Source of the DNA: Neocallimastix sp. 'constans'
Lineage: Eukaryota
DNA: 64,000 nucleotides
Direction of reading: 5' to 3'
Assembly: GCA_050613775.1 (NCBI GenBank)
Contig: JBODTK010000014.1
Coordinates: forward strand, 682,001 to 746,000
A program made the translations under genes and the position numbers. Positions 7,801 to 36,514 of the stretch are shown piece by piece (within the stretch, counting starts at the first letter, position 1; every line of letters begins with the position of its first letter). Below the pieces are notes generated by a model. The model worked only from the letters and a program-made list of their open reading frames with translations, was not told the DNA's origin and searched no databases.

Positions 7801-8710
7801 ACACACAAAATAAAATTATTCAAATATTAATAAAATATATTTATTATGTAACGAAACCAAATATATATAAAATATAATATATATTTATTTTTAATTTAAT
7901 TTAAATATCGTTAAGCGTTTCACATCTTTTATCAAAAGAAATATAAATAAAATAAAAAAAAATTGAAATCTTTTTATTGGTTCCCTCCTCAGAATAAATT
8001 AAAAATATCAAATAAAAAAAAAAAAAAGATACACGAATAAAAATTTAAAAAAAAATAATAATTTAAAATTTTAAAAAAAAAATTTTTTTTAATAATTATA
8101 AATAAAAAAAAGTTTATATATAATAAATTAAATAATAAATAATAAATTAAATAATAAATAATAAATTAAAAATTAAATACAAAATAGAATTATAGAATAC
8201 TATTGTATATATAAATGAATAAACAACAAAATAGACATCATTCATACATAAATATATGGTTAATATATGTATAATAGAAATAGTTATATAAGGCATACCT
8301 ATTTTATATACATAGTTTTATAGGAATTAAAAAAGTTTTTATTAATAAAAGTTAAACAATTTTCAAAACATTTTTGTATATTAAATTATATTAAATAATG
8401 ATTATTATAAATAAAATAAAAAAAAAAAAAGCTATAAAAAAGGTTAATTTCCTTTTAAAATTTTAAACAAACACATTTTAAAAAAAAAATTAAAAAAAAA
8501 ATTAAAAAAAATTAAAAAAAATAAAAAAAAAAAAAAAAAAAAAAAAAAAATAAATAAAATAAAAAAAAAATTTTAACAAAAGTTAAAAAAAAAAATAAAT
8601 AAATTAAAAAAAAAATAAAAAGAAAATAATAGAATAAAAAATTTTTAATAAAGTTTAAACAAAACTAATATATATACCAAAGAATTAAATTAATAAGTTA
8701 AATTAACAAA

Positions 8711-10948
8711 ATGAGATTAAACAAAATTTTATTAGCACTTGTTGCTGCATTAGCCATTCAAACTGCTGATGCTGCTACTAAAACACTTCCAAATACTAAA
8801 ACTCTTCCAAGTACTAAAACTCTTCCAAAGACCAAGACTCTTCCAGTCACCAAGACTCTTCCAATAAGTAAGACTCTTCCAAACACTAAGGTCTCTAAGA
8901 CTCTTCCAAACACCAAGGTTTCTAAGACTCTTCCAAACACCAAGGTCTCTAAGACTCTTCCAAACACCAAGGTCTCTAAGACTCTTCCAAACACCAAGGT
9001 CTCTAAGACTCTTCCAAACACTAAGGTCTCTAAGACTCTTCCAAACACCAAGGTAAGCAAGACTCTTCCAAATACCAAGGTTTCTAAGACTCTTCCAAAC
9101 ACCAAGGTTTCTAAGACTCTTCCAAACACTAAGACTCTTCCAAAGACCAAGACTCTTCCAAACACCAAGGTTTCTAAGACTCTTCCAAAGACCAAGACTC
9201 TTCCAAACACCAAGGTAAGCAAGACTCTTCCAAATACCAAGGTTTCTAAGACTCTTCCAAACACCAAGGTTTCTAAGACTCTTCCAAACACTAAGACTCT
9301 TCCAAAGACCAAGACTCTTCCAAACACCAAGGTTTCTAAGACTCTTCCAAACACAAAGACTCTTCCAAAGACCAAGACTCTTCCAAACACCAAGGTTTCT
9401 AAGACTCTTCCAAACACTAAGACTCTTCCAAAGACCAAGACTCTTCCAAACACTAAGACTCTTCCAAATACCAAGGTTTCTAAGACTCTTCCAAACACAA
9501 AGACTCTTCCAAACACAAAGACTCTTCCAAAGACCAAGACTCTTCCAAACACCAAGGTTTCTAAGACTCTTCCAAACACTAAGACTCTTCCAAAGACCAA
9601 GACTCTTCCAAACACCAAGGTTTCTAAGACTCTTCCAAACACTAAGACTCTTCCAAAGACCAAGACTCTTCCAAACACCAAGGTTTCTAAGACTCTTCCA
9701 AACACTAAGACTCTTCCAAAGACCAAGGTTTCTAAGACTCTTCCAAACACAAAGACTCTTCCAAAGACCAAGACTCTTCCAAACACCAAGGTAAGCAAGA
9801 CACTTCCAAACACTAAGACTCTTCCAAATACCAAGGTTTCTAAGACTCTTCCAAACACCAAGACTCTTCCAGTCACCAAGACCAAGACTCTTCCAAACAC
9901 CAAGACTCTTCCAAACACTAAGGTTTCTAAGACTCTTCCAAACACCAAGACTCTTCCAAACACTAAGGTTTCTAAGACTCTTCCAAACACCAAGACTCTT
10001 CCAAACACTAAGGTTTCTAAGACTCTTCCAAACACCAAGACTCTTCCAAACACTAAGGTTTCTAAGACTCTTCCAAACACCAAGACTCTTCCAAACACTA
10101 AGGTTTCTAAGACTCTTCCAAACACCAAGACTCTTCCAAACACTAAGGTTTCTAAGACTCTTCCAAACACCAAGACTCTTCCAGTCACTAAGACCAAGAC
10201 TCTTCCAGTCACCAAGACCAAGACTCTTCCAAACACTAAGGTTTCTAAGACTCTTCCAAACACCAAGACTCTTCCAGTCACTAAGACCAAGACTCTTCCA
10301 GTCACCAAGACCAAGACTCTTCCAGTCACCAAGACCAAGACTCTTCCAGTCACTAAGACCAAGACTCTTCCAGTCACTAAGACCAAGACTCTTCCAAACA
10401 CCAAGACTCTTCCAGTCACCAAGACCAAGACTCTTCCAAACACCAAGACTCTTCCAGTCACTAAGACCAAGACTCTTCCAAACACCAAGACTCTTCCAGT
10501 CACTAAGACCAAGACTCTTCCAAACACCAAGACTCTTCCAGTCACCAAGACCAAGACTCTTCCAAACACCAAGACTCTTCCAGTCACCAAGACCAAGACT
10601 CTTCCAGTCACTAAGACCAAGACTCTTCCAGTCACCAAGACCAAGACTCTTCCAATCACTAAGACCAAGACTCTTCCAATCACTAAGACCAAGACTCTTC
10701 CAAACACCAAGACTCTTCCAAATACTACTAGAGCTCAAACAACTACTCAACCAAGACCAACTTATCAACCACAACCAGATAATGACTACTACTCTTGTGA
10801 TAAGGATGACTGGCCATGCAAACAACAAAAATCTGATGCTTGTTATGCTGAATTAAACGCTTGCTGGAGTAGACCATGGTCTGAAGCTTTACAAGTTGAA
10901 TGTTTAGCTATTAACGAAAAGTGTTCTAAGATTTGGATTTATGCCTAA
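8711..10948 (+). CDS. Secreted Lys/Thr/Pro-rich tandem-repeat (KTLP) protein with a C-terminal 6-Cys domain
   Basis: 745-aa intronless ORF. Signal peptide MRLNKILLALVAALAIQTADA; ~650 aa of KTLP(N/K/V)T, SKTLPNTKV and KTLPVTKT repeats; C-terminal CDKDDWPC...C...CW...C...C. Sharp GC rise relative to flanks. Confidence 0.9.
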   Translation: MRLNKILLALVAALAIQTADAATKTLPNTKTLPSTKTLPKTKTLPVTKTLPISKTLPNTKVSKTLPNTKVSKTLPNTKVSKTLPNTKVSKTLPNTKVSKTLPNTKVSKTLPNTKVSKTLPNTKVSKTLPNTKVSKTLPNTKTLPKTKTLPNTKVSKTLPKTKTLPNTKVSKTLPNTKVSKTLPNTKVSKTLPNTKTLPKTKTLPNTKVSKTLPNTKTLPKTKTLPNTKVSKTLPNTKTLPKTKTLPNTKTLPNTKVSKTLPNTKTLPNTKTLPKTKTLPNTKVSKTLPNTKTLPKTKTLPNTKVSKTLPNTKTLPKTKTLPNTKVSKTLPNTKTLPKTKVSKTLPNTKTLPKTKTLPNTKVSKTLPNTKTLPNTKVSKTLPNTKTLPVTKTKTLPNTKTLPNTKVSKTLPNTKTLPNTKVSKTLPNTKTLPNTKVSKTLPNTKTLPNTKVSKTLPNTKTLPNTKVSKTLPNTKTLPNTKVSKTLPNTKTLPVTKTKTLPVTKTKTLPNTKVSKTLPNTKTLPVTKTKTLPVTKTKTLPVTKTKTLPVTKTKTLPVTKTKTLPNTKTLPVTKTKTLPNTKTLPVTKTKTLPNTKTLPVTKTKTLPNTKTLPVTKTKTLPNTKTLPVTKTKTLPVTKTKTLPVTKTKTLPITKTKTLPITKTKTLPNTKTLPNTTRAQTTTQPRPTYQPQPDNDYYSCDKDDWPCKQQKSDACYAELNACWSRPWSEALQVECLAINEKCSKIWIYA

Positions 10949-12437: not shown

Positions 12438-12900
12438 TTAGGCTCCTCTCTCTTAACATTGTGCTCTCTTTACAGAAATTTATTCCTCGGGCTAGTACTC
12501 GGCAAGGGTTACTATTCCGAAAGTATAAGCGCAAACTAACCAGGAGCGTCAACGCTGAAAATGCAGTAAGACAGGCTAGCAGGGCCAATGCTTCTGAAGG
12601 AGAAGATCATAATTTCTTTCAGATAGTCAATTCAAACCATAATCTATAAGGAGGTGAGGTTCGTTGCCTATGAACTTTTTTCTGAATTTATCTATACACT
12701 TATTTTTGATTATTACTTTTTATGTAACGTTACCATTTCATTTATTATTATGTTCAAACTGGACAAATAATATTTATTTATTTTATTAATTCTGTGTTTT
12801 TTTTTTTTTTTTTTATTTTTTTATTAAAATTAAAAATATTCATGTATTTTATATAAGAATAAGTAAATAAAGATTAAAGTTCGCAATAATTGCGGCTATT

Positions 12901-12931
<31 letters not shown>

Positions 12932-14378
12932 ACAATGAAAAGAAGAAAAAATGTAAAAATTATATCAAAAGGAACTCAACGATTAGTATTTATGCCTTAT
13001 CTCATGATCTTCAAGTATTTCCAATTGCTGGCTTTTGTGCTTCTTTTTAAATAAAATGATTTTTGTAAATGGAGAAATTCTAAATGTATTATTAAAGATC
13101 TCATAAACCTTATCCCTTCTAGGCCACGTTATTCTTGGTCGAAAAAATCACAGGTGCTCTTCAAGAAAATAAAGAAAAAGAACATCACTAAATTCAAAGA
13201 TGTTATTGAATCATATTGGTCTGATGTTGGTAAATTCCAAGGAATTAAAGGTATGAATTATGATAACTTCAAATTTATAAATACTAGAAATTTATTCAAG
13301 CTCAGCCTTGAATACCCTCATTTAAGTTTAGGTTTTAACTGCATCTTAAAATTAAGAGCTGGTTACAAAATACAAAATATAATACAACTATTGCAATTAG
13401 AAGTGGTAGAGTTTCTGACGACTGTCCTAAATTCTGCCCTTGTTGTGGAAAAGGTGAACAATCATTTTATCCATTGGATATTTGAATGCTCTATCTTTTC
13501 TTTATGTCGATGTAAATCTTTAGATTTTATCGATGATTTATTCATTATATTTGCCAATAAAGTAAGGAATCTTTCCTTACTTCCTTCTTATTCTAATATT
13601 TTAGAATATGAAAATTTCATAAACAGGTATATTTATACATTCCTTCTTGGGGGAATTTCAGCTTTAGATGAGCTACAATTCGATACTGGGGAACAGAGAC
13701 ATTTAAGTGAACAACTCCTAAAAAGTTCACAGGGGTCTACTGTTCCGTATATTGTGGGGCTTCCGGAATATCTTGCTAATACAATACCAATCATCAGTAG
13801 CTCTCTTGAGTTACTTTTTGAGAGGTTTAGCAAAAACAACATTCATTACCAAGAGTGCCGACGTCGTACCGATATGGCAAAGGAATAAATGCAGTTGGAA
13901 GTCCTGTTAATTCTCATCAATACACATTAACTAACAGCACAGTTCCGAACATAGAACCTATAGTAAGTAATTCAATTTCTGATGTTCTTTCTTGTGGTTC
14001 AAGGGAGAATTTAGTGGATACCACACTATCTATTTTAAAGATGTTACTTCTTTGTTTTATTATGTTAGATTAAACTGGTGATCATGCTACTACTCGTAGT
14101 ATACATCACTCCGAATTTTATTTAACTCTTGAACTTATTTTTATTCTTTAATACATTAAATTTTCTTTGATTAATTAAAATTTGTTATTTCTTATCTTTT
14201 TATCATTTTTTATTTTACTTAATCTTTTATATATATTTTATTTTTTTTTATCTTTTAATTATATAATGTATTTTTTTTATAATTAAATGTAATACATAAA
14301 AATATTTCAATTTATTTAATAAAGCACTGGAAGTGTATTCTCTTCTTAGTCTAAAAAAAAAAAAAAAAAAAAAAAAAA
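12434..14378 (+). mobile_element. Degenerate LINE 3' portion (element B): post-RT region, Cys/His knuckle, FLLGG motif, 3'UTR, poly(A)
   Basis: Fragments ISIYALSHDLQ, KWRNSKC, CPCCG..HWIFEC and FLLGG are homologous to the full-length element. AATAAA precedes TAGTCT-A26 (14353-14378). Interrupted by element A. Confidence 0.85.
12459..12926 (+). mobile_element. 5'-truncated LINE insertion (element A): ORF C-terminus, 3'UTR and poly(A)
   Basis: Closely similar to 36056-36514. A26 tail at 12901-12926. Candidate TSD TCTTAACA(T/A)TG at 12451-12461 and 12927-12937. Confidence 0.85.
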
Positions 14379-15910: not shown

Positions 15911-16747
15911 GTAATAATAGTAATAGTAATAATAGAAATAGTAATAATAGTAATAGTAATAATAGAAATAGTAATAATAGTAATAGTAATAATAGAAATA
16001 GTAATAATAGTAATAGTAATAATAGAAATAGTAATAATAGTAATAGTAATAATAGAAATAGTAATAATAGTAATAGTAATAATAGAAATAGTAATAATAG
16101 TAATAGTAATATTAGTTTTAGTAATATTAGTAATAGTATTATTAGTAATGTTAGTAATAGTATTGAAAATAATGTGTATGTTGATTCTAATGTGTGTGAA
16201 AAAGTGTTTAATTTCCTTCTTGGAGGTCGAAGTATTAATAACAGTACAAGGGAATGGAAGGATCTATTTAAGTGCCAGATGAAATCAGGTGCTTATTCTG
16301 ATACTCCGTTCTTAGTGGTTACTGCGGCACTTCTCTAATCGATTATACCTATTGCTATTGGCCAGCAATGGTCTTTATTCAATAGGTTCAAATCGAATCG
16401 TACTACTACCACCAAGAGCGTCAATGCTGAAGAAACAGTAAGACAGGCCAGCAGGGCTAGCGCAACCAATGAAGATCATAATTTCGTATCTTAAAATTAT
16501 GATTAACATTGTGAAGTCAAAAAATAATTATTATACTACAGTATAATAATGCCCTTGTGAAGTCTTACAGATATTAATTAAATGAAACTAGAATACATTT
16601 TACCATTATTTTATTTTATTTTGTGTTTTATTTTTGTATATTTTTTTATCTTTTTCGTTTTTTTTTTTTTATTTTATTACATGTATTTTATCAAATATTT
16701 AATTAATAAAGATGAAACAAGTTTGCTGCCGTTAAAAAAAAAAAAAA
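14379..16747 (+). mobile_element. Degenerate LINE (element C): RT core to 3' poly(A)
   Basis: LAFLDLKKAYDSVP, GV*QGCPLSPILFN, GGLFADDIVL, GINKCATM, YLGIPF, CPCC knuckle, FLLGG. AATAAA and A14 tail at 16734-16747. Many frameshifts and stops. Confidence 0.9.
15911..16110 (+). repeat. 30-bp Asn/Ser-coding minisatellite inside the LINE C ORF
   Basis: About 6 copies of AATAGAAATAGTAATAATAGTAATAGTAAT, in frame (NRNSNNSNSN). Confidence 0.9.
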
Positions 16748-17490
16748 TTATTAGAGTTATGGATTTAAATTTCGTAAATTCTTATGTGTTAGTCTCTATA
16801 AATATTACTCATGAAATCGAGAATACCTACTCTTTCAACTGTCTGTGCTATATCTCAATTACGTTGCTTTAGAAAATGGAAAAAAACTCATCATCATGTA
16901 TTATTAATCATCTCACTAATAATATTCCTACGATGTCACATTACTCATGGACTAAAGAATCAAGGACTTTGGATAAGAAATTAAATGGTTAAAAAAACAA
17001 GTGAAATAATAAAAAGTTTTATTGGGAAAGAGAGATGTCTTCAAACTCTCAAAAGCTAAAAAAAAAAAATGCAATTATTTACAAGGAGGAGAATGATTTT
17101 GGATTTATTTCGGAAATCAAAAAATTTAACATTTCAATATCCTAAGTATCAGTTGGGATTCTTTTTGGATTTCTCGAATTAGGTGTGGTTTTAAATTTGA
17201 CATTTAGTATTTTTCATTAAAAGAATAGTAGTCTCATCTCAGAAGATTGCCCTAAATGTTGGCCATGTTGTGGTGTTAGTGTACCTAGCTTTTCTCACTG
17301 GATCTTTGCCTATAAAGAATTAGGGGAACATTACAGAAATAAATTTCTACCTTTTTAGATGATCTCGTTTTTTTTGAAATTCGCAATGATAATTGAACAA
17401 AAAAAAATCCTTGGATGTTTCTTTAGGTTTAGAAAAGGATTATGATATTAATATTTAATATTTTATAATTGAGTGCTCTTCTTGGCAGGA
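16748..17490 (+). mobile_element. Degenerate LINE fragment (element D): post-RT region and knuckle, cut at the LLG motif
   Basis: NNIPTMSHYSWTKESR, RIRCGFKFD, CPKCWPCCG..FSHWIF and ALLGR match the C-terminal part of element F. Confidence 0.85.
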
Positions 17491-20169
17491 GTCCCAATGA
17501 TGAAACCTAAGCTATAGAGTTTCTGAGGGGATCAGCAAATTGTATAATAATAAAATTTTTTAATTATGTTTCAATTTACATACAATCTCAATCTTTTTAT
17601 ATAAATCATAGCTTTAGTTTTTAAAGCAATTATTCAATCAAAAGACTTTTTTACACTATACTACAAACAATATTGTTTTTGTTTTTTTCTCTTATATCTT
17701 TAAAATTTTTCTATACTATATATATATATACATTTATCATTATATATGTTATTTTATATCTCTATATAAATTTTTTACCTTAGATTGTTAATTTTTTTAT
17801 ATCCTTTTACAACATATTAACATATAAAAAAAAATTAAAATTTATTTTACATTATATTTATTAAATAAATAATTTTTCTATTAATATTGTTTTCTTAATA
17901 TATCTTAGGAAACTCAATTCATGAGAAACAATTAACTTTTATATTCAGTAAACTTAAATGTTAATATTTTATATATAATTCTTTGGTATGCAATCCTTAT
18001 ATCAATTTTCATTTGATAGAAATTTAAGTCAATTTTCTTTGGTATGAAATCCTTATATCAATTTTCATTTGATAGAAATTAAGTCAATTTTTTTCTCAAC
18101 AAACTCTAAACACGGATGCTTTTTTTTTGCTCAGTTAATACTACACCTTTCCATCATGGTTTCTACGACTTCGGGAATTATTATAACCTTATTTTTATCC
18201 ATGACCTTAATTCTTGGTCCCCTAGTAAACCAATGGTTCAAGTTATTAGTAAGATCCCTAACTACTGTGAAATTATTCCATACATAAAAAACTTTTTTTT
18301 CTCCAAGGTATAGCTCATACTTCATTGTTAGGGTTAATAAACACAAAAATGATCTCAACTTTTTCGATGTTTTAAATTTCATAGGAGAAAAAATTCCTGA
18401 AACAGCTAAAATTAACTGGTTCTTGTGTAATAAACTTAAACGAAAGAACAAGTCTATAAAAAATCTAATAACATTGATGTTGAACCTAACCCTATGGCAT
18501 AAGATTTTATTTTATCTCTTGCCATCTAAATTCAAAATTTTCTTTCTTTAATCTCTGTGAAAGTTGGAATATTAATGGTTGGAATATTGAAAAGCATGAT
18601 AGTATTTTATACCTCAACTCTATTTTTTTTTTTTAAACCTATATGTATCTGTTTTACATGAAACTGGAAAAAAGTAAAATATCTTCCAAAAGATGTTTTA
18701 TCACCACCATTAATTCCAAATTACAATTCAGTTTTTCTTAGAGCTAATCTTAAAACCCCCCGGTATGAGAGGATTCTTTTTTTGGTGTTTATTCTTCGTT
18801 TTCTTTCTTCCAAGAACCGTTTTCATACAAATATTATCATTTCAGTAAATATTACTTCTTTCTAGAATCAAAAATGTACTAATGGTAATATCTACTTCCT
18901 TCAAAGCAAAATGGAAGGAAGTAAAGACTAGTTACTTTTGATGAACTTTCTCAATGGTTACATTTTCACAATAGAAAAAATGTTCCTGCTGTCCTAGTTG
19001 GTGATTTTAACATGTCATTAAAGAAGGATCAAAACATACATTTCAAAATAATTTTCCTAATCGGTATATTGCTCCCTTATAGGGTAATCAATTTACTTAT
19101 GAAAAAGGTACTAGATCGTCTTGCATTGATCACGTCATCTATAATGAGGCTCTGGCAACTCATATTAATAAGACATCGGTTTGTACTTCATTTTATGGTA
19201 TCTCCGATCATAAACCTGTTTTACTTTCTTGCAACAAAGTTCTTTCCGATGGCTTTATAGGTCCTGCTAAATTTTCTAAATAGTCTACACATATTTGTAA
19301 AAAAAAAAAAAAAAAATTCAGATATTTTATCACATAATTATTTTTTCAATCTTAGTAAATGATTTCGATTCTCATTACAATGCACTTACGGCTGATGAAA
19401 TGGTAGAAAAATTTATCAATACAGCAAATAATATCAGGGAAAGATATTAAGGCTTTCATTCCAACAAATGTAAAAGGCTCGGCTTTTTATTGTCCCTATT
19501 ACATTAAAAAAAACTGTCTCATGAAAAGCATATTACATTTAAAAACATTTAAGCTTTTCTTTAATTGTGAAAATGTTGATAATTACCTTAAACAATTTAA
19601 TAAATATGAAAAAACTTTTGCAAATTGATCAAGAAAACAAAGAGTAAATTTCGTTCTGCTAGATATAAGGCTAATATAGTAAAAATCGGTAATTATTTTT
19701 TTGAATAAAGATTTCAAAAATGGTTGGAGGTGTTTAAAAAAAAAAAAAAATAAATAAATGGCTAAACCATCTTATTCATCCACCTCTCTTACTTGCTTTA
19801 AATATAAATTTGTTCAAGATATTATCTCTCCTACTAAGCAATTAGATAAATGGGCTGAATATTATAAAAATCTAGCTTCTGACCCTTCAGGTCACAGCCT
19901 TAATCGTAACTATTGGAATCATGCTCTACGAAATATTAGTCTTTTTAGATCCTCTGCTTGGAATATCAGCGGTTCCAATTACGATTGATGATATTAAAAA
20001 AAAAATACTATTTCATCAATGAAAAACAACAAAGTACCCGACCCTGATGATTATCCTGATTGAATTCTACAAAGCTCTATTTTGCAATGAAGAATTACTA
20101 GAAACCCATGCTTGCCGCTGGAAAGTGCCTTAAATTGATATTTAATAAAATCTAGAATGGGACCTTTCC

Positions 20170-20200
<31 letters not shown>

Positions 20201-20563
20201 AACTCAGCTTCTATTGTATCTATCCCTAAGAAAGATGACCTGCCAGATTGTAGTCACTATCGAGGTATTTCTCTCATTAATGTTTGGACTGAAGATCATT
20301 TCAAAAAATTATAACTGATAGAAATATCTACCTACGCACTTAACACACAATTTCATTAGACCTGAATAATTTGGTTTTCCCAATCGTGAAGAATGCATTT
20401 AGTTTATTCATTTCCGTTAGAGAAATTTGCCAAAGAAGAAAATTTCAAGGAAAATTCACATATCTAGCCTTTTTAAGATCTTAAAAAAAGCTTATGATTC
20501 AGTTCGTATATTTAACATCCTTACTAAATTGTATCATTAGGGAGTCCGTGGTAAATGTATTCC
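17491..20563 (+). mobile_element. Degenerate LINE 5' half (element E): 5' hairpin, 5'UTR, RRM-like N-terminus, APE, start of RT
   Basis: LIFIHDLNSW and YFIVRVN (homologous to 26703-26984); SWNINGWN, GNIY, LVGDFNM and SCIDH (APE); YRGISLIN and DLKKAYDSV (RT). Ends abruptly at the (TTA)n tract. Confidence 0.9.
17493..17529 (+). ncRNA. Kink-turn (box C/D-type) hairpin at the 5' terminus of LINE E
   Basis: CCC-AAU-GA-UG-AAAC-CUA-AGCUA-UAG-A-GUUU-CU-GA-GGG: C-stem, 3-nt bulge, tandem G.A/A.G, U.U, G-C. Contains AUGAUGA (box C) and CUGA (box D). Confidence 0.7.
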
Positions 20564-21085
<522 letters not shown>

Positions 21086-21799
21086 ATAAATCGTAAAAAA
21101 TCATTATTAATAAAAAAAAAGAATAAAATAAATTTATAAAATTATAGTTTATATATATAATAAAAATAAAATTAAAATTAAAATAAACAATAATTCTTAA
21201 TATAAAAGTTTTACATATTATATATTATATATATATATATATATTTTCATCATTTTATTTTTGTATTAATATTCCATAAAAAGTTTATTTGAATTAGAGA
21301 TATAATATATAATTATGAAATAATCAAATTTTTTTTTTTTTTTTTTTTATTAATATAAATAAATAAATTTTATTGGCTAATAATAAAATGTTATGAATAA
21401 TATGATCAGAAAAGAAAATAGTTCTAGAAAGTTAAATCATTCTAAAAGAATGTAGTACTATTTGGAATCAGATTCAAAAACTTTTCTATTATCCATAATC
21501 ATTGGTTCAGTTTCCTGTACACGTCCAGAAGCATGAACCTTAATAACATGTTCAATACCATTTTCACATAATAATTTAATTACAGTAAAATAAGTATCTA
21601 CTTATTTCTGTACTGCCTACTATCTATTCATTTATTGATAATATAAGCAATGATGAAATTCCTAAGAGTATTATTTAATATCTTTTTTTTTTTTTTTTTT
21701 TTTTTTTTAATAAGATTTTCATGAAAAATATAAACAGCACAAAAAAAGAAAATTCATTATCATTTTCCTCTTAAAAATTTATTACCTTCTACATGTATT

Positions 21800-22369: not shown

Positions 22370-22759
22370 ACCAGAGATCCTTCATCATACATTTAGAATT
22401 TCTCCATTTAACAAGCCATTTGATTTGAAGTGAAGCATAAACTCAAGCAATAAGAAAAATTTTGGAGATCGCATGATAAGGCATAAGTACTAGAGTTAGT
22501 TAAGTTTCTTTCAATATAATATTTCTTATGAGATTCCTTTTCATTATTTTTAACTATGTCATTTTCTTTAATCCTTGAGGAAGGATCAATACCCCTTACT
22601 AAACTAGTAATAATAAAAAAAATTGAACTTTGTTTGTATTTAGTCATGTTTGAACCTAAAAGTAGAGCAAAATATATAGCTTTGCTAATAATATGTGATT
22701 GAATAATATATATCGCTTAAGGGGTAAAGAAATCAACCTATTGGATAAGAAAACTAGAG

Positions 22760-22762
<3 letters not shown>
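22370..22762 (-). mobile_element. Older host LINE (element G), downstream part
   Basis: FSSF/LSNRLISLPLKR, YFALLLGSN, STYALSCDLQ and KWRNSKC continue directly from the 27718-27960 piece once element F and one TSD copy are removed. Confidence 0.85.
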
Positions 22763-22798
<36 letters not shown>

Positions 22799-22896
22799 CT
22801 AGGAATAAACTTTATTTAATAATATTTTTTTTTTAAAAAAATACATGAAGTTTAAATACATGAATTTTTTTTTTTTTTTATATTAATATTAAAAAA

Positions 22897-25800
22897 CTAC
22901 GTTATGAGATTCGAGGACGAAATGGCCTCTAACTCTTCCCATTCATCGAAGATAACTCCATGTGGATGAAAATTATCATTCGAATCTGTATCAGAATTTC
23001 TTCTTTGCCTTATCGTTACGACGTCGACGCTCTTGACAACGGTAGGTCTAACACTATACAAATCGATCATGGTGTAAAAATCACCAATCACAATAGGCAT
23101 AACGTTAGTAAGGAATTCCGCAAGCCCCACAAAATATGAAATCGGGAAAGAAGACTCGTTCGAAGGTGATTGAAAAATATTATTAATAAATCGCCTTCTT
23201 TCCCCCGGAGCCGATCTTTAAGATTTCAAATACTGCATTTCCGCCAAGAAGGAGACACAGCACGTAAAAATTGATATTATCATCAAAATCTTCCTCTTTA
23301 TCATCAGGAATGTTCAATGATTTCTCATGAACAATTAGAGAAAAATTAATAAAAATTTCATCAACAAAGGGAATGAAATGTTGCCTAAATTCTTCAAATT
23401 TAGGACATAAAAGTATCCAGTGTGTAAAACTAGGTATGCTGTTACTCTCACCACAACAAGGGCAGTATGTTGGGCAATTTTCTGATACTAGATTACTTTT
23501 AACATACGTTTTTACATCAAATTTGAATCCACATTTAATTCGTCCAATCCAAAAAAAATTCAAGAGAAAATTGTGAATATTTAAGTGATAGATGTTGAAT
23601 AAATTTTTTAAAACCAAATTTAAATTTCTTGTATTTTGTAGATCTGATCGCAGGAGTGCTTGAATAATGAATATTTTCCAAGTAAAACTTCCTTATTTCT
23701 CCAGGAAGTTTATTATTGTGCTTGTGTACTGCTAAACTCCGTGCTTTTTTCGTCCATGAATAGTGAGAAAGTGTAGGTATATTTTTGACTAAATGAGAAA
23801 TAATACAAGAAGAATCTTTCCACTTTTTAAAGCATCGAATCATCGCCTTAGCACAAAAACTAGCTATAGGAGGTATAGAAAGTTCCTTAGACATATTGTA
23901 AATTGAAGTATTGGAGGTTTTATTTTTAAACCCAAAACTCCAATACAAACCTCGATTAAAAGCAGTTTGAGCTTTTTCAGTATTCTTTTTATTTGAACCA
24001 AGTAAGGGAGCATAATAAAGAACTGAACTAAGGACAAAAGAAACTAGTATACGAGTTTTAAAGTAGAAAGGAACATTCCTATTGGTTAAAAATCTAAAGA
24101 AAGAGTTAACTGTATAATTAATTTTACTATTCATCTTAGCAATAATAGGTTTTAAATCCAACGATTCATTAAAAGGTATACCAAGATATGTATATTGATT
24201 AGTGCTTGGTATATAGTTCATACCATGTCTAAATGTAGGATTTTCATAATGTCTTGAAGGTATAAAATTCTTTGGTTTAACAACTAGTGTAGCGCATTTA
24301 TTGATTCCAAAGGTCATTTCATTTTTAATACCCCAATCATGAGCAATATTCAAAAGGTTTTTAAGTGAAGATTTTGTAGGAGCTAATAATACAATATCAT
24401 CAGCAAATAATCCACCACAACACTTTTTCTTTTCAGTAATCACACCATAACTTTTACATTTATCAAAAATATCATTGACAAATATATTGAATAAAATAGG
24501 TGAGAGAGGACACCCCTGGCGAACACCACGGTGTATTGGAAATTCTTTTGAAAGTTTACCATTAAAGTTTGCACGAGCTTTCGAGGTAAGGTATAGATTA
24601 GTAATGAATTGAAGGCATTTACCACGAATACCAAGATTATTTAATTTAGTAAGTATATTGTAAATTGGAACTGAATCATAAGCTTTTTTAAGGTCAAGAA
24701 AGGCAAGAAAGGTAAATTTATCCTTAAATTTTCTTCTTTGCCAAATTTCACGAATGGATACAAATAAACTAATACATTCTTCTTTATTTCTAAAACCAAA
24801 CTGTTCTGGTCTAATTATTCCATTAGAAAAAGCATAGTCCGATATTCTTTTAGTGACAATTTTTGATAGAATTTTTAAACCTACATTGATGAGTGAAATA
24901 CCACGATAATTATTACAATCTGAAAGATCCCCTTTTTTAGGAATAGAAACAATAGAAACAGAGTTCCATTCATTAGGAAAGTCACCATCCCAAATTTTAT
25001 TAAAAAGTAATAACAGACACTTTGCACAATCGGAATAAGTAACCTCTTGATTAGAGTCATCCTGAGAAGAAGTTCTACTCTCAGAATTAAAAAATGCTTT
25101 AAAAAATTCTGTAGGTATACCATCAGGATCAGGTGCTTTGTTATTTTTCATTGAAAGAACAGTTGAATGAATTTCTGACATGGAAATAGGATGATTAATA
25201 TCCAATGATTCCTGAGGAGTAGAAGAATTATTAAGTATTCTTTTCCAATAATTTTCATTAAGACTGTGACCAGTTATATCAGAAGCAAGTTCTTCATAGT
25301 GTTCTGCAAAACGATTGAGTTGATCTTCTTGGGATACTAAAACATTACCTTCTTTATCTTTAATGTATACAGGTGATTGGGAAGGAGAGTAAGAAGGTTT
25401 AGAGATTTTCTCAAGTCCAGACCAACCACGCTGGGCATCATTTTTTAAGAAACATTCGCCGATGGAATGAATCAAATTTTTAAATCTAATATTCCTAATA
25501 TTTCTTTTAATACTAATGATATAATCAGAAAGAACTCTATATTCTTTTGAAAGATCACAAAATTCTTGAAGATTAGACAAATCATTACGAAGTTTAAAAT
25601 TTTTAATCCTTTTATAAAATAAATGTTTTTCATGTGATAATTTCTTAATATAAGTAGGACAATGGAACGCTGAACCCTGTAAATTTGTAGGAACTCTTGC
25701 ATGAATGTCATCGCCTATTTTATTTGCTGTGTCAAGAAGTTTTTTAACCATTGTATTAGAGTCTAGATTATCATTATGTTCAAATTCATCCAGTAAACAT

Positions 25801-26984
25801 GTGAATATATTATGAGAGAAGATTGCTTCACGTTTATCCCTAAAAATTCGATTAGACCACTTAATTTGTTTATCCCGAGGCGGAGTAACAAAACCATCAG
25901 GAGATATTTTTTTACAAGAACGAATAAGTGATAAATGGTCAGAGATGTCATTAAAAGAGTAGCATACAGAAGCAATATTCAGATAATTTCTTAATTTATC
26001 GTTCACTACTATAAAATCAATACAAGAATTCTTTCCACCATTAGACCAAGTAAATTGATGACCAACCATATCCATAACAAACCATTGAGGGGAAATTCTA
26101 AGAATAAGATCTTTGAGTTGTTGCTTAGTCATGTTGAAATCACCAACAATAGCCGAAGGGTTATTCTGATGGTTCTTGAGCCAATTAGCAAAATCAGTTT
26201 CTGCTTTTTCTCTAGAGTCTTTGTGTTTTTTGCTAGGAATGTAAATGTTCCCTAAAGAACATCTGACACCCCAAAAAGAGAATATATTTACTGAGAGTAT
26301 ATATCTATATTCAAAATCATCATTAGTGAATTGGCAGGAGGAGTGCACACCTATATAAAGGCCCCTCATACCAGGGATTTTTTTGTCCGCACGTCTCAGT
26401 ACTTTTCTATAATGATTAAGGAATGGATATGAGTTAGAAAAAGAGTTAAGGAATGAACTATTACCGACTTCTTGAAGACAAATACAAATAGGATTAAAGA
26501 TTGAATTAAAATTGGTAAGTCCGTCATGTTTTTCAGAATTCCAACCATTTATGTTCCAGCTAATACAGAGGTTGAAATATTGAGTATTCGAGAAAGGGTT
26601 AGCATACAGGAGGCTTTCAAAGACGGGGATTGAAGGTTCAGAATAATACCTGGTTCTATTATGATTAACACTGCTAAATGTGCGTATCCTTGAAGTAATC
26701 TTCTATTTTATTCTTTTAACAGGTAAGTGCTTAGTAATCAAATAAATAACTTTCAAATAATCCATATAATTATTATAGTTAACTCTTAGGATGAAGTAGT
26801 TTTCCATATTAATATAGTGTTTTTTAACGATTCCATGAACAACTTCATTACAATTTGATATCTTTTTGCTTAAAAATTCCCATAGTCTACTTTCAGTCCA
26901 AGATTCAAGATCATGAATGAAAATTAAAACAAATTTATCATGGTCAGGACCATAATGTCGCAGACCTCTTCGTATAGTTGACAT
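22897..26984 (-). pseudogene. Single polyprotein ORF of element F: RRM-like, APE endonuclease, reverse transcriptase, CCHC knuckle; one nonsense codon and two frameshifts
   Basis: ATG 26984. Reading past TAG 26703-26705 stays in frame through SWNINGWN and CLQEV into the 944-aa ORF (GDFN, DLKKAYDSV, GVRQGCPLSP, FADD, YLG). Frameshifts near 23610 and 23180. CPCCG-x8-HWILLC and LLLGG. Confidence 0.9.
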
Positions 26985-27679: not shown

Positions 27680-27717
27680 CCCTCCATGGACCTGGAAAAA
27701 CAGTCCACTTCATTGGG
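27680..27717 (-). ncRNA. Kink-turn (Kt-7-type) hairpin at the 5' terminus of LINE F
   Basis: CCC-AAU-GA-AG-UGGAC-UG-UUUUUC-CA-G-GUCCA-UG-GA-GGG starts immediately after the TSD: C-stem, 3-nt bulge, G.A, A.G, A.G, G.U, 5-bp stem. Confidence 0.7.
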
Positions 27718-28830: not shown

Positions 28831-31800
28831 TTAGTTTTCAGAAGAGCAACTATTATATTTAAATTATATTAATAAAATTATAATGAAGATATTAAAAATA
28901 TATTAGATATTTCGTTTGTTGAACAATTAATATAAAAATAAAATTATTTATTTATTATTACAAAATTTTTGTTAATAAAATAAATTACTTACATAGATTT
29001 GAGTTCTTCTGGAACTTTGTCACATCCATCTTCAATTTTTAATTCGGAAAGATTCTTAAGATTCTTTAAAGAAGAAAGATCTTCAGCATCAATAGAACGA
29101 ACATCAATTTTTAATGATTCAAGTTCACTGAAACCAGAAATGATTTTAATATCTTCATCATCAATGGAAGTGTTTCCATATAAGACTAATGATTTTAAGG
29201 ATTCAACATTCTTGAAGGCATTTAAAGTTGAACTAACACTATTAGTGGTTATTTTCTTTAAATTCTTGAGATTCTTTAATGAAGAATAATCTAAATCGTC
29301 ATCAAAGTCACATTCATTAAATTCAATTTCTTCAAGTCCACTTAAAGAAGATAAAACATCAATTCCTCTTTGACTTAAAGAAATTCTCATTAATTTAATC
29401 TTTTCAAGAGTACCTACATTTTCAAATTCTTCTAATGAACTTTCTTCATATTCAGTATAAGCTTCACTTATAGTTTCAGTAGGAGCTGAACTAGAAGAGC
29501 AGAGAGATTTAAGTTCTTCTGGAACTATATCACATCCATCTTCAATTTTTAATTCGGAAAGATTCTTAAGATTCTTTAAAGAAGAAAGATCTTCAGCATC
29601 AATAGAACGAACATCAATTTTTAATGATTCAAGTTCACTGAAACCAGAAATGATTTCAATATCTTCATCATCAATGGAAGTGTTTCCATATAAGACTAAT
29701 GACTTTAAGGATTCAACATTCTTGAAGGCATTTAAAGTTGAACTAACACTATTAGTGGTTAATTTCTTTAAATTCTTGAGATTCTTTAATGAAGAATAAT
29801 CTAAATCGTCATCAAAGTCACATTCATTGAATTCGATTTCTTCAAGTCCACTTAAAGAAGATAAAACATCAATTCCTCTTTGACTTAAAGAAATTCTCAT
29901 TAATTTAATCTTTTCAAGAGTAGCTACATTTTCAAATTCTTCTAATGAACTTTCTTCATATTCAGCATAAGCTTCACTTATAGTTTCAGTAGGAGCTGAA
30001 CTAGAAGAGCAGAGAGATTTAAGTTCTTCTGGAACTATATCACATCCATCTTCAATTTTTAATTCGGAAAGATTCTTAAGATTCTTTAAAGAAGAAAGAT
30101 CTTCAGCATCAATAGAACGAACATCAATTTTTAATGATTCAAGTTCACTGAAACCAGAAATGATTTCAATATCTTCATCATCAATGGAAGTGTTTCCATA
30201 TAATTCTAATGATCTTAAGGATTCAACATTCTTGAAAGCATTTAAAGTTGAACTAACACTATTAGTGGTTAATTTCCTTAAATTCTTGAGATTCTTTAAT
30301 GAAGAATAATCTAAATCGTCATCAAAGTCACATTCATTAAATTCAATTTCTTCAAGTCCACTTAAAGAAGATAAAACATCAATTCCTCTTTGACTTAAAG
30401 AAATTCTCATTAATTTAATCTTTTCAAGAGTACCTACATTTTCAAATTCTTCTAATGAACTTTCTTCATATTCAGCATAAGCTTCACTTATAGTTTCAGT
30501 AGGAGCTGAACTAGAAGAGCAGAGAGATTTAAGTTCTTCTGGAACTATATCACATCCATCTTCAATTTTTAATTCGGAAAGATTCTTAAGATTCTTTAAA
30601 GAAGAAAGATCTTCAGCATCAATAGAACGAACATCAATTTTTAATGATTCAAGTTCACTGAAACCAGAAATGATTTCAACATCTTCATCATCAATGGAAG
30701 TGTTTCCATATAAGACTAATGATTTTAAGGATTCAACATTCTTGAAAGCATTTAAAGTTGAACTAACACTATTAGTGGTTATTTTCTTTAAATTCTTGAG
30801 ATTCTTTAATGAAGAATAATCTAAATCGTCATCAAAGTCACATTCATTAAATTCAATTTCTTCGAGTCCACTTAAAGAAGATAAAACATCAATTCCTCTT
30901 TGACTTAAAGAAATTCTCATTAATTTAATCTTTTTAAGAGTACCTACATTTTCAAATTCTTCTAATGAACTTTCTTCATATTCAGCATAAGCTTCACTTA
31001 TAGTTTCAGTAGGAGCTGAACTAGAAGAGCAGAGGGATTTAAGTTCTTCTGGAACTATATCACATCCATCTTCAATTTTTAATTCGGAAAGATTCTTAAG
31101 ATTCTTTAAAGAAGAAAGATCTTCAGCATCAATAGAACGAACATCAATTTTTAATGATTCAAGTTCACTGAAACCAGAAATGATTTCAACATCTTCATCA
31201 TCAATGGAAGTGTTTCCATATAAGACTAATGATTTTAAGGATTCAACATTCTTGAAAGCATTTAAAGTTGAACTAACACTATTAGTGGTTATTTTCTTTA
31301 AATTCTTGAGATTCTTTAATGAAGAATAATCTAAATCGTCATCAAAGTCACATTCATTAAATTCAATTTCTTCGAGTCCACTTAAAGAAGATAAAACATC
31401 AATTCCTCTTTGACTTAAAGAAATTCTCATTAATTTAATCTTTTCAAGAGTACCTACATTTTCAAATTCTTCTAATGAACTTTCTTCATATTCAGCATAA
31501 GCTTCACTTATAGTTTCAGTAGGAGCTGAACTAGAAGAGCAGAGGGATTTAAGTTCTTCTGGAACTATATCACATCCATCTTCAATTTTTAATTCGGAAA
31601 GATTCTTAAGATTCTTTAAAGAAGAAAGATCTTCAGCATCAATAGAACGAACATCAATTTTTAATGATTCAAGTTCACTGAAACCAGAAATGATTTCAAT
31701 ATCTTCATCATCAATGGAAGTGTTTCCATATAATTCTAATGATCTTAAGGATTCAACATTCTTGAAAGCATTTAAAGTTGAACTAACACTATTAGTGGTT

Positions 31801-32986
31801 AATTTCCTTAAATTCTTGAGATTCTTTAATGAAGAATAATCTAAATCGTCATCAAAGTCACATTCATTAAATTCAATTTCTTCGAGTCCACTTAAAGAAG
31901 ATAAAACATCAATTCCTCTTTGACTTAAAGAAATTCTCATTAATTTAATCTTTTCAAGAGTACCTACATTTTCAAATTCTTCTAATGAACTTTCTTCATA
32001 TTCAGCATAAGCTTCACTTATAGTTTCAGTAGGAGCTGAACTAGAAGAGCAGAGAGATTTAAGTTCTTCTGGAACTATATCACATCCATCTTCAATTTTT
32101 AATTCGGAAAGATTCTTAAGATTCTTTAAAGAAGAAAGATCTTCAGCATCAATAGAACGAACATCAATTTTTAATGATTCAAGTTCACTGAAACCAGAAA
32201 TGATTTCAATATCTTCATCATCAATGGAAGTGTTTCCATATAAGACTAATGATTTTAAGGATTCAACATTCTTGAAGGCATTTAAAGTTGAACTAACACT
32301 ATTAGTGGTTATTTTCTTTAAATTCTTGAGATTCTTTAATGAAGAATAATCTAAATCGTCATCAAAGTCACATTCATTAAATTCAATTTCTTCGAGTCCA
32401 CTTAAAGAAGATAAAACATCAATTCCTCTTTGACTTAAAGAAATTCTCATTAATTTAATCTTTTCAAGAGTAGTTACATTTTCAAATTCTTCTAATGAAC
32501 TTTCTTCATATTCAGCATAAGCTTCACTTATAGTTTCAGTAGGAGCTGAACTAGAAGAGCAGAGAGATTTAAGTTCTTCTGGAACTATATCACATCCATC
32601 TTCAATTTTTAATTCGGAAAGATTCTTAAGATTCTTTAAAGAAGAAAGATCTTCAGCATCAATAGAACGAACATCAATTTTTAATGATTCAAGTTCACTG
32701 AAACCAGAAATGATTTCAATATCTTCATCATCAATGGAAGTGTTTCCATATAAGACTAATGATTTTAAGGATTTAACATTCTTGAAAGCATTTAAAGTTG
32801 AACCAACACGATTAGTTGTTAATTTCTTTAAATTCTTAAGATTCTTTAATGAAGAATAATCTAAATCGTCATCAAAGTCACATTCAGTAAATTCAATTTC
32901 TTCAAGTCCACTTAAACCAGATAAAACATTAACATATTCTTGATTTAATGAAAGTCTCGTTAAATTGCTGTAAAATTTAAAAGATT

Positions 32987-33033
<47 letters not shown>

Positions 33034-33258
33034 AATTATAAGTAATTTTTAATAAAATTTGATAAAAAAAAAAATTTTAATTTAAATAATAAATATTATT
33101 AATAATAATTATTACAATTTAGTTATAATTCCATCATGGTTACAAGTTAAATTAATATCTCCTTCAAAATTTTTATTGAATTCTTTAACTTCACTGCATT
33201 GAGAAGCTAAAGCACCAAGAACAAGAAAAGAATGTACTAATCCTCTAATATATTTCAT
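28831..33258 (-). CDS. Secreted acidic leucine-rich-repeat protein; 3 exons (33258-33116, 32967-28993, 28849-28831)
   Basis: Exon 1 MKYIRGLVHSFLVLGALA.. is a signal peptide. GT-AG introns are phase-compatible. LxxLxxLxxLxL repeats. Splicing at GTAAGT (28992) gives ...ELKSICSSEN*, matching the repeat consensus ELKSLCSS. Confidence 0.88.
28993..32967 (-). repeat. ~7.8 near-identical 510-bp (170-aa) coding tandem repeats
   Basis: Same sequence recurs every 510 bp with only a few substitutions. Confidence 0.97.
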
Positions 33259-35628: not shown

Positions 35629-36514
35629 TTGAAATGATAAACACTGTTATCACAGATACAAATAATGTCGAATTAAGTACAGATTCTGATAGTAGTAATG
35701 AAATTTATAATATTAATAATAACAATAGAAATAATATTGTTAATAATAATAAAATTAGTGATCGAGAAAATAGGAATATTAATATTAGTGATAGTGAAAA
35801 TAATAATATCGTTACTAATAATGTAGTGAATAGTTCAATTGGTGAAAATCGTGTTAATTTAAGTAATTATCTGAATAATGAGTGTGTATATATATATGGG
35901 TCGTGGTACGGATTATATAATTTCCTTCTTGGTGGAAGAGATGCAGACATTATTGATTAAAATAAAAAAAAAAAGGAATGGAATTGTTATGTTTAAGAAC
36001 CAAAATCATTTTTGGTAATTATATTCTAAAAACGCCATTCTTGGTGTGATCTACAGCTCTCTTTACAGAAATTTATGCCTAGGACTAGTACTTGACAAGG
36101 GTTACTATTCCCACGGTACAAGTGCAAACTAACCAGGAGCGTCAACGCTGAAAATGCTGTAAGACAAACTAGCAGGGCCAATGCCTCTATAGGAGAAGAC
36201 CATAATTTCTTTCTAGATAGTCTAATCAAACCTTAATCCATATGGATATGAGGTTCGTTTCATATGAACTTTTTTCGGAATTTATTTATACACTTTATTT
36301 CTTGAATTTTACTTTTTTATTTCCCGTTACTCTTTTAAATATTATTATGTTCTAATTAGACAAATAATATTTATTTATTTTATTAATTCTGTTTTTTTTT
36401 TTTTTATTATATTATTATTTTTTATTTAAATTAAAAATATTCAAATAATTAATAAATGAATAAATAAATAAAGATTAAAGTTCGCAATAATTGTGGCTAT
36501 AAAAAAAAAAAAAA
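35629..36514 (+). mobile_element. 5'-truncated LINE (element H), same family as element A
   Basis: Asn-rich linker, NFLLGGR and TRSVNAENAVRQ. 3'UTR ends AAGATTAAAGTTCGCAATAATTGTGGCTAT-A14, as at 12870-12926. Confidence 0.88.

What the first reader, a model, noticed from the sequence alone, without database searches (positions are those of the whole stretch)
17493..17529. Second, divergent LINE starts with the same k-turn, as a miniature box C/D motif (natural covariation)
Seen: element E begins right where host element D is cut (after its LLG codons) with CCC AAU GA UG AAAC CUA AGCUA UAG A GUUU CU GA GGG. Compared with F, the CCC-AAU-GA / GA-GGG frame, the length (37 vs 38 nt) and a single bulged purine on the 3' strand are kept. 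The stem sequence is different (AAAC/GUUU vs UGGAC/GUCCA; U.U,G-C vs A.G,G.U) and the rest of the 5'UTRs show no visible similarity. It contains perfect box C (AUGAUGA) and box D (CUGA). Inference: structure rather than sequence is under selection, possibly snoRNA mimicry or snoRNA origin.
Basis: partly seen in the sequence, partly recalled or inferred. Interest (0 to 1): 0.88.

Follow-up and report, generated by a model that had tools for sequence, protein, structure and literature searches.

The report
Kink-turn hairpin begins fungal LINE retrotransposons
Several distantly related LINE retrotransposons of anaerobic gut fungi begin with a short hairpin that has the sequence pattern of an RNA kink-turn, likely a swappable folded cap that protects or sets the RNA's front end; it is not a true snoRNA.

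Summary
The motif is real and is a family feature. E (17493-17529) and F (27717-27680, start fixed by a target-site duplication) both parse as standard k-turns. Seven more copies lie upstream of the ORF in 5 of 45 related loci, at or next to the element start (7 hits in 22 kb of upstream sense strand, 0 antisense, shuffle mean 0.08). They form six sequence types whose stems differ yet pair, on ORFs only 37-51% identical to F's. The box C/D reading fails at family level: U.U and a perfect box C occur in E only (1 of 9). E is a decayed copy, and its first 13 nt overlap a look-alike stretch of host element D, so the perfect box C may be accidental. The hairpin seems part of a larger 5' fold with a weakly supported loop-to-downstream pseudoknot. 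Other families start with a non-kinked C-run stem and kissing loops; modules are swapped between lineages and stacked. No Rfam match. Best guess (0.45): a folded, possibly Snu13-bound 5' end that blocks exonucleases. Rivals: promoter, new ribozyme, snoRNP mimic. No function was tested.

The parts
17493..17529 (+). k-turn hairpin at the start of LINE E: C-stem 17493-17495/17527-17529, bulge 17496-17498, tandem G.A pairs, U.U, G-C, 4-bp stem, 11-12-nt loop
   Evidence: sequence; parse; 3' half in E relatives L015/L017; 5' 11 nt not seen in a second E copy
17497..17503 (+). perfect box C in this copy only; overlaps the stretch that also resembles host element D
17523..17526 (+). box D-like CUGA, E-family sequence
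16787..17492 (+). host LINE D, decayed C-terminal coding fragment ending just after the LLG codons; junction with E somewhere in 17486-17505
   Evidence: 87.6% to L004; loose ends and depth step
17530..18117 (+). rest of E's 5'UTR (approximate end), AT-rich and repeated in the sequencing runs laid
18118..20560 (+). E ORF (endonuclease and start of reverse transcriptase), frameshifted, cut by a TAT microsatellite; start approximate
   Evidence: tblastn; 84% DNA identity to L015 over 3.0 kb
27680..27717 (-). k-turn hairpin at nucleotide +1 of LINE F (-1 C:G, 3b:3n A:G, 4b:4n G:U); loop could pair with bases 5-12 nt downstream
   Evidence: same module in L002 and L045
27718..27731 (-). upstream copy of F's 13-14-nt target-site duplication, which fixes F's 5' end at the first C of the hairpin (one C ambiguous)
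22749..22762 (-). downstream copy of F's target-site duplication, after the poly(A) tail
23183..26984 (-). F's single ORF: APE endonuclease, reverse transcriptase, C-terminal Cys/His motif; interrupted in this copy
   Evidence: Pfam PF03372/PF14529/PF00078; 97% to P0001

Best explanation
The 37-nt motif is the first hairpin of LINE E and one of a set of k-turn-pattern hairpins at the start of several gut-fungal LINE lineages; it likely folds, alone or with Snu13 or another L7Ae-family protein bound, into a compact 5' module that would protect the element's RNA from 5'-to-3' exonucleases and so set where full-length copies begin. Shown: position at the element start, recurrence, retained pairing, exchange of 5' modules between lineages, and stacking of modules. 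Inferred: the kinked fold (from published sequence rules), a pseudoknot between the loop and the next 5-35 nt in some types, protein binding, and the protective role. On this view, elements nested in other LINEs are read through from upstream and trimmed back to the first module they carry, or start there and are stabilised by it.
For: F starts at the first C of the hairpin by target-site duplication. Same-module pairs diverge exactly upstream of the C-run: L013/L014, L007/L039, L002b/L045a, F/L002c. Scanner: 7 hits in 22,037 nt of upstream sense strand, 0 antisense, 4 in 140,729 nt elsewhere read on both strands; shuffle means 0.085 and 0.075, 0 of 200 reach 7. All 9 modules keep C-stem, 3-nt purine-led bulge, both GA steps and a paired 4b:4n; compensatory C-stem changes in L023 and L027. 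G.A geometry is an RNA feature, not a DNA one (established knowledge). Loop-to-downstream pairing of 6-11 bp in 7 of 9 modules, with different sequences in the same register in L045a, L027 and L023. The non-kinked class shows loop-loop pairing in 7 of 7 (p 0.013-0.075). Parallels in print: plant-virus xrRNAs are a stem plus pseudoknot with the Xrn1 stop at the base of P1 (PMC6299227, passages); a stable 5' fold limits R2 template loss (PMC11331408, abstract); C/D snoRNAs are trimmed to 4-5 nt before box C (PMC4053766, passages), and F starts 4 nt before the equivalent position.
Against: No function was tested and no RNA data were laid. The pseudoknot is weak in the k-turn class: single-module p 0.02-0.215 in 7 modules, absent in E (0.64) and L020 (0.665), and loops pair about as well with other modules' downstream regions. 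Seven of 19 loci with long upstream sequence start with a non-kinked stem only, so the k-turn is not required. A shared DNA-like motif at +270 to +385 of six distinct 5'UTRs fits an internal promoter, which would explain the precise start without trimming. The nine modules are six sequence types and may descend from swapping, so the depth of conservation is unknown. The scanner was written after the motifs were seen. Metagenome contigs are collapsed repeats: no target-site duplication was found in the 12 loci checked.
Confidence: 0.45

Rival explanations
1. The module is the start of an internal promoter region. Transcription begins at the C-run, and the k-turn serves a later step such as translation control, localisation or packaging. 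Stacked and swapped modules would be promoter capture, as recalled for mammalian L1 5'UTRs.
For: Precise starts; stacked modules in L002 (three) and L045 (two); a 105-nt module 94% identical between L007 and L039, whose ORFs are 40% identical; shared motif at +270 to +385 in six distinct UTRs. L7Ae represses translation through 5'UTR k-turns in archaea (PMC5539422, passages).
Against: Does not by itself explain why the very first bases are paired in both module classes. Pol II starts at a C-run are uncommon (recalled). E lacks the downstream motif.
Confidence: 0.22
2. The module is the 5' part of an undescribed self-cleaving ribozyme that cuts just upstream of the C-run and frees the LINE RNA from read-through transcripts, the job done by HDV-like and twister ribozymes in other non-LTR elements.
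For: Other LINE 5' ends are made this way: L1Tc cleaves at +1 (PMC3185411, passages); twister variants in Schistosoma (PMC8501958, listing). Tertiary contacts and k-turns are typical of folded functional RNAs. These LINEs often sit inside other LINEs.
Against: No Rfam ribozyme match at E <= 5. By inspection there is no room for HDV P3/L3 inside P1. No catalytic-looking residues are shared by the two classes. The two-module unit B+C occurs behind two different flanks (L002, L045), so the inner module does not always cut.
Confidence: 0.15
3. The hairpin mimics, or derives from, a box C/D snoRNA and assembles Snu13, Nop56/58 and Nop1 on the LINE RNA.
For: E has perfect boxes C and D with U.U and G-C. 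E, L020 and L027 have 3b:3n pairs that fold poorly without protein (rules). The 5' end lies 4-5 nt before box C, as in snoRNAs. A 36-nt mouse box C/D RNA is reported to guide methylation, so small size does not exclude it (bioRxiv 10.64898/2026.07.28.740266, abstract). snoRNAs can be retroposed (PMC1687206, listing).
Against: U.U and perfect box C in 1 of 9 modules. E is a decayed copy, 84% to L015, and its box C overlaps sequence shared with D. The two other CUGA modules have A, not U, at 3b. No Rfam snoRNA hit at a module. The RNA continues for kilobases past box D.
Confidence: 0.12
4. In E the motif is an accident of the junction: its 5' half is mutated D coding sequence that happens to complete a k-turn with a 5'-truncated E.
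For: L004 matches 8 of 13 nt at 17493-17505 in register. L015/L017 show that E copies can be truncated inside the hairpin.
Against: Identity to D drops from 87.6% to 62% there. E fits the pattern of the other modules at 10 of 10 positions against 7 of 10 for L004. E's loop shares five bases with L045a and L027. This would not touch the other eight modules.
Confidence: 0.06

Closest known systems
Standard k-turn (Kt-7 type; drum, RAGATH-18 and HOLDH k-turns, PMC8191799)
   Same: C-stem, 3-nt bulge, tandem G.A/A.G. F's core (-1 C:G, 3b:3n A:G, 4b:4n G:U) equals that of drum in the paper's Table 1.
   Different: Here it closes a terminal hairpin at nucleotide +1 of a eukaryotic retrotransposon. 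Folding was not measured.
Box C/D snoRNA k-turn and tiny box C/D RNAs
   Same: E alone has RUGAUGA, CUGA, U.U and G-C, and a 4-nt lead before box C.
   Different: Eight of 9 modules lack U.U and a perfect box C; no 3' end near box D; no guide target tested; no Rfam hit.
5' ribozymes of non-LTR retrotransposons (HDV-like in R2 and L1Tc; twister variants in Schistosoma)
   Same: Structured RNA that begins at or next to nucleotide +1 and travels with the element.
   Different: Different fold, no Rfam match, no P3/L3 core; cleavage not tested.
Dianthovirus-type xrRNA (PMC6299227)
   Same: Stem P1 with a pseudoknot to the 3' segment, a hairpin right after the pseudoknot in some members, and an end at the base of P1.
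   Different: No sequence relation tested; xrRNAs are viral and not described there as having a k-turn in the passages read; the pseudoknot here is weakly supported and Xrn1 resistance untested.
Mammalian L1 5'UTR monomers and promoter replacement (recalled, no call)
   Same: Swappable, stackable 5' units on a conserved ORF.
   Different: Those are DNA promoters; no k-turn is recalled there.

Membership tests
standard k-turn | canonical stem, 3-nt bulge, tandem G.A and A.G, then a non-canonical stem | tested here: met
   9 of 9 modules; own-arm pairing 7 of 7 against 13 of 40 foreign
standard k-turn | kinked fold in Mg2+ or on L7Ae-family binding | not testable with these tools
   predicted from the rules in PMC8191799 and PMC5689011: ion folding for 6 of 9, poor for E, L020, L027
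box C/D snoRNA | box C RUGAUGA and box D CUGA with U.U at 3b:3n and G-C at 4b:4n | tested here: not met
   met in E only, 1 of 9 modules; E's box C lies in the ambiguous junction
box C/D snoRNA | discrete small RNA ending 2-5 nt after box D | not testable with these tools
   no RNA data; the hairpin is the start of an element of about 5 kb
box C/D snoRNA | antisense guide to host rRNA or snRNA, or homology to a known snoRNA | tested here: inconclusive
   no Rfam hit at any module; host rRNA and snoRNAs not available
HDV-like, twister, hammerhead, pistol or hatchet ribozyme | match to the family's covariance model | tested here: not met
   Rfam at E <= 5 on window 8000-38000 and on 11 of 46 loci: two chance-level hits, neither at a module
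HDV-like, twister, hammerhead, pistol or hatchet ribozyme | site-specific self-cleavage | not testable with these tools
   needs an in vitro assay
xrRNA | pseudoknot from the P1 loop to the 3' segment | tested here: inconclusive
   6-11 bp possible in 7 of 9, p 0.02-0.215, not partner-specific, absent in E and L020
xrRNA | blocks Xrn1 at the base of P1 | not testable with these tools
   element starts coincide with the base of P1; the block itself is untested
APE-RT non-LTR retrotransposon | endonuclease plus reverse transcriptase, poly(A) tail, target-site duplication | tested here: met
   F; E is 3'-truncated and assigned by homology

The most novel reading that the evidence does not exclude
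These LINEs carry an undescribed class of 5'-terminal functional RNA, in kinked and non-kinked forms, that makes its own 5' end, either as a new self-cleaving ribozyme or as a cellular exonuclease-blocking RNA that borrows Snu13 to fold, and that moves between LINE lineages as a cassette.
Probability: 0.25. Interest if true: 0.9.

Novelty: new variant of a known kind. Interest (0 to 1): 0.64.

Why it matters
How non-LTR retrotransposons obtain and protect a defined RNA 5' end is known for few clades (promoters, HDV-like and twister ribozymes). This is a further, apparently uncatalogued solution, with natural variants short enough to test directly. If it blocks exonucleases or cleaves itself, it adds an RNA class and a compact stabilising 5' module, which matters for retrotransposon-based gene insertion where 5' stability limits efficiency (PMC11331408). 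If Snu13 binds, it links a core spliceosome and snoRNP protein to retrotransposon RNA. The six types also span ion-folding and protein-dependent k-turn cores, a natural test of the published folding rules.

Tried and rejected
No genome is held, so the genome-wide enrichment test and the comparison with host snoRNAs and U4 were not possible. No RNA holder listed. Base-level variation among E copies across the hairpin was not obtained, so the E consensus at 17493-17503 stays open. Viral contigs: 0 of 166 candidate stretches encode a relative. Prokaryote genomes: 2 of 43, one real and probably a mis-binned fungal contig (L045), one weak (L046, left out of the scan). A covariance model of the 9 modules found only those 9 below E 0.5 in 226,766 nt. 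Pair counts on the model-fitted alignment were inconclusive because about half the rows were out of register: slides of +1 and -1 scored as well; the in-register parse was used instead. No target-site duplication in 12 metagenome loci, as expected for collapsed contigs; none for E, whose 3' end and D's continuation are not in the window. SECIS was considered and dropped by inspection (5' position, short helix; definition recalled). HDV, twister, hammerhead and pistol folds were tried by eye from recalled consensus features and by Rfam, without a fit. The tree is the quick version; E's long branch comes from frameshifted segments, so L015 stands in for the E family. Earlier findings: nothing by words or by sequence.

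Full report
Setting. The window is AT-rich (GC 8-33%). Its middle part is a nest of one clade of single-ORF endonuclease plus reverse-transcriptase LINEs. Named relatives come from anaerobic gut fungi: an Orpinomyces gene model and a Neocallimastix protein in the 90% cluster of F's closest match. No genome is held.

The observation. The sequence is as stated. E and F both parse as standard k-turn hairpins. F's 5' end is fixed at the first C by a 13-14-nt target-site duplication. The claimed bulged purine is not conserved.

Does the motif belong to E? Contigs from four runs show a tenfold depth step near 17500, other D copies that continue differently after the LLG codons, and a 439-nt junction contig with no differences in three of the runs (depth is no copy number). 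L015 and L017, apparently one insertion, carry E's 5'UTR from 17518 behind another LINE, and a contig from another organism covers 17504-17625. The first 11 nt were not seen in a second E copy. D's relative L004 matches 8 of 13 nt at 17493-17505 in register, so the junction may lie anywhere in 17486-17505, perhaps formed with the help of this likeness. E origin is more likely, because the window fits the other modules at 10 of 10 positions against 7 of 10 for L004, and identity to D falls from 87.6% to 62%. The U that makes box C perfect lies in the shared six bases, so it cannot be trusted as the family state.

Recurrence. An alignment of 8 N-terminal protein stretches brought 44 metagenome loci of 255 candidates and 2 genome loci of 43; 45 were scanned, L046 being left out as a weak match. 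A k-turn scanner written after the first look found 7 hits in 22,037 nt upstream of the ORFs on the sense strand, 0 on the antisense strand, and 1 sense plus 3 antisense in the other 140,729 nt. Shuffles gave means of 0.085 and 0.075, and none of 200 reached 7. Of the 19 loci with at least 600 nt upstream, 5 have a full k-turn hairpin (L002, L020, L023, L027, L045), 2 have its 3' half, 7 start with a non-kinked module only, and 5 show no recognisable start. With E and F there are 9 modules of 6 types. Their ORFs are 51% (E family) and 37-40% (L020, L023, L027) identical to F, and kinked and non-kinked types interleave on the tree (quick tree, 24 of 26 rows, two dropped as too short).

Structure over sequence. 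All 9 keep the C-stem, a purine-led 3-nt bulge, both GA steps and a paired 4b:4n; L023 and L027 have compensatory C-stem changes. Own arms give 5 or more pairs in 7 of 7 modules tested, foreign arms in 13 of 40. A formal pair count failed through misregistration. The 3b:3n pair is U:U once (E), A:G three times, U:G three times and A:U twice. By the published rules (PMC8191799 and PMC5689011, passages) the six with 3n = G should fold in Mg2+ alone, F's core being of the best-folding kind, while E, L020 and L027 would need an L7Ae-family protein. Box C/D k-turns conserve U:U, so the family is a generic k-turn, not a box C/D motif. Size alone does not exclude a C/D role (bioRxiv 10.64898/2026.07.28.740266, abstract).

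A larger fold. In 7 of 9 modules the loop can pair 6-11 bp with a stretch 5-35 nt downstream, with different sequences in the same register in L045a, L027 and L023. Support is weak: p 0.02-0.215 per module, no partner specificity, and no such pairing in E or L020. The non-kinked modules also begin with a C-run paired to a G-run about 30-50 nt on, and their first loop pairs with the loop of a second hairpin in 7 of 7 (p 0.013-0.075; four sequence types; segments chosen by eye from predicted folds). Rfam gave nothing at any module.

Modules move. L007 and L039 share a 105-nt start at 94% on ORFs 40% identical. L045 has two stacked k-turn modules and L002 has the same two behind a non-kinked one; F has only the last. 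These contigs are collapsed repeats, so single paths should be read with care, but the two-module junction appears in two separate assemblies.

Mechanism. Shown: position, recurrence, pairing, swapping. Inferred: kinked fold, pseudoknot, protein binding, function. I favour a folded 5' end that resists 5'-to-3' exonucleases and so sets or preserves nucleotide +1 (0.45). It fits the start at the base of P1 in both classes and resembles xrRNAs (PMC6299227, abstract and passages), snoRNA trimming (PMC4053766, passages) and the R2 5' fold (PMC11331408, abstract). Rivals are an internal promoter with a later role for the k-turn (0.22), a new ribozyme by analogy with L1Tc (PMC3185411, passages) (0.15), snoRNP mimicry (0.12) and a junction accident in E (0.06).

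Novelty. Seven searches of the held library listed no paper on a k-turn at a LINE 5' end or on 5' structures of gut-fungal LINEs; only titles and abstract starts of the top rows were seen, and most subscription journals are missing. No supplements were read. Structured LINE 5' ends are a known kind; this fold appears to be a new variant. Interest 0.64: real, recurrent and cheap to test, but the snoRNA claim does not hold and the function is unproven.

Noticed in passing
L001:47-155, L002:49-135, L003:170-245, L007:152-225, L011:152-215, L013:107-172, L014, L039:359-430: Second class of LINE 5' module without a k-turn: a C-run stem and a second hairpin whose loops can kiss, in four sequence types. 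No Rfam match. May deserve study on its own.
   Followed up: partly
L002:49-430 and L045:79-310: Stacked 5' modules (three and two) of about 150-190 nt in front of an F-family ORF.
   Followed up: partly
window 27349-27312 (minus), L001:325-362, L003, L020, L023, L039, L045: Shared motif around TGATTC at +270 to +385 of six distinct 5'UTRs (of 12 examined, L045 repeating F), preceded by repeated TGTA words; possible internal promoter or protein site; absent from E, L007, L011, L013, L027.
   Followed up: partly
window 22797-22815 (minus), 14330-14355; L001, L003, L007, L011, L013, L014: Conserved 3' end just before the poly(A) tail across distant families, a likely recognition site for the reverse transcriptase.
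   Followed up: no
window 12463-12913, 16411-16485, 36056-36514: Shared 3' region among elements of the other sub-clade.
   Followed up: no
L045; proteins P0081 and P0109: These fungal LINEs appear in prokaryotic MAGs (Erysipelotrichaceae, Methanobrevibacter, Clostridia), most likely mis-binned contigs.
   Followed up: no
window 28989-33035 (minus): Open frame of 1348 codons made of about eight near-identical 510-bp units with a leucine-rich-repeat look.
   Followed up: no
window 8702-10948: 748-codon ORF, probably secreted, of short Thr/Lys/Pro-rich repeats with a Cys-rich C-terminus.
   Followed up: no
window 20565-21090: Pure TAT microsatellite of about 520 nt at the point where E is cut off.
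   Followed up: no
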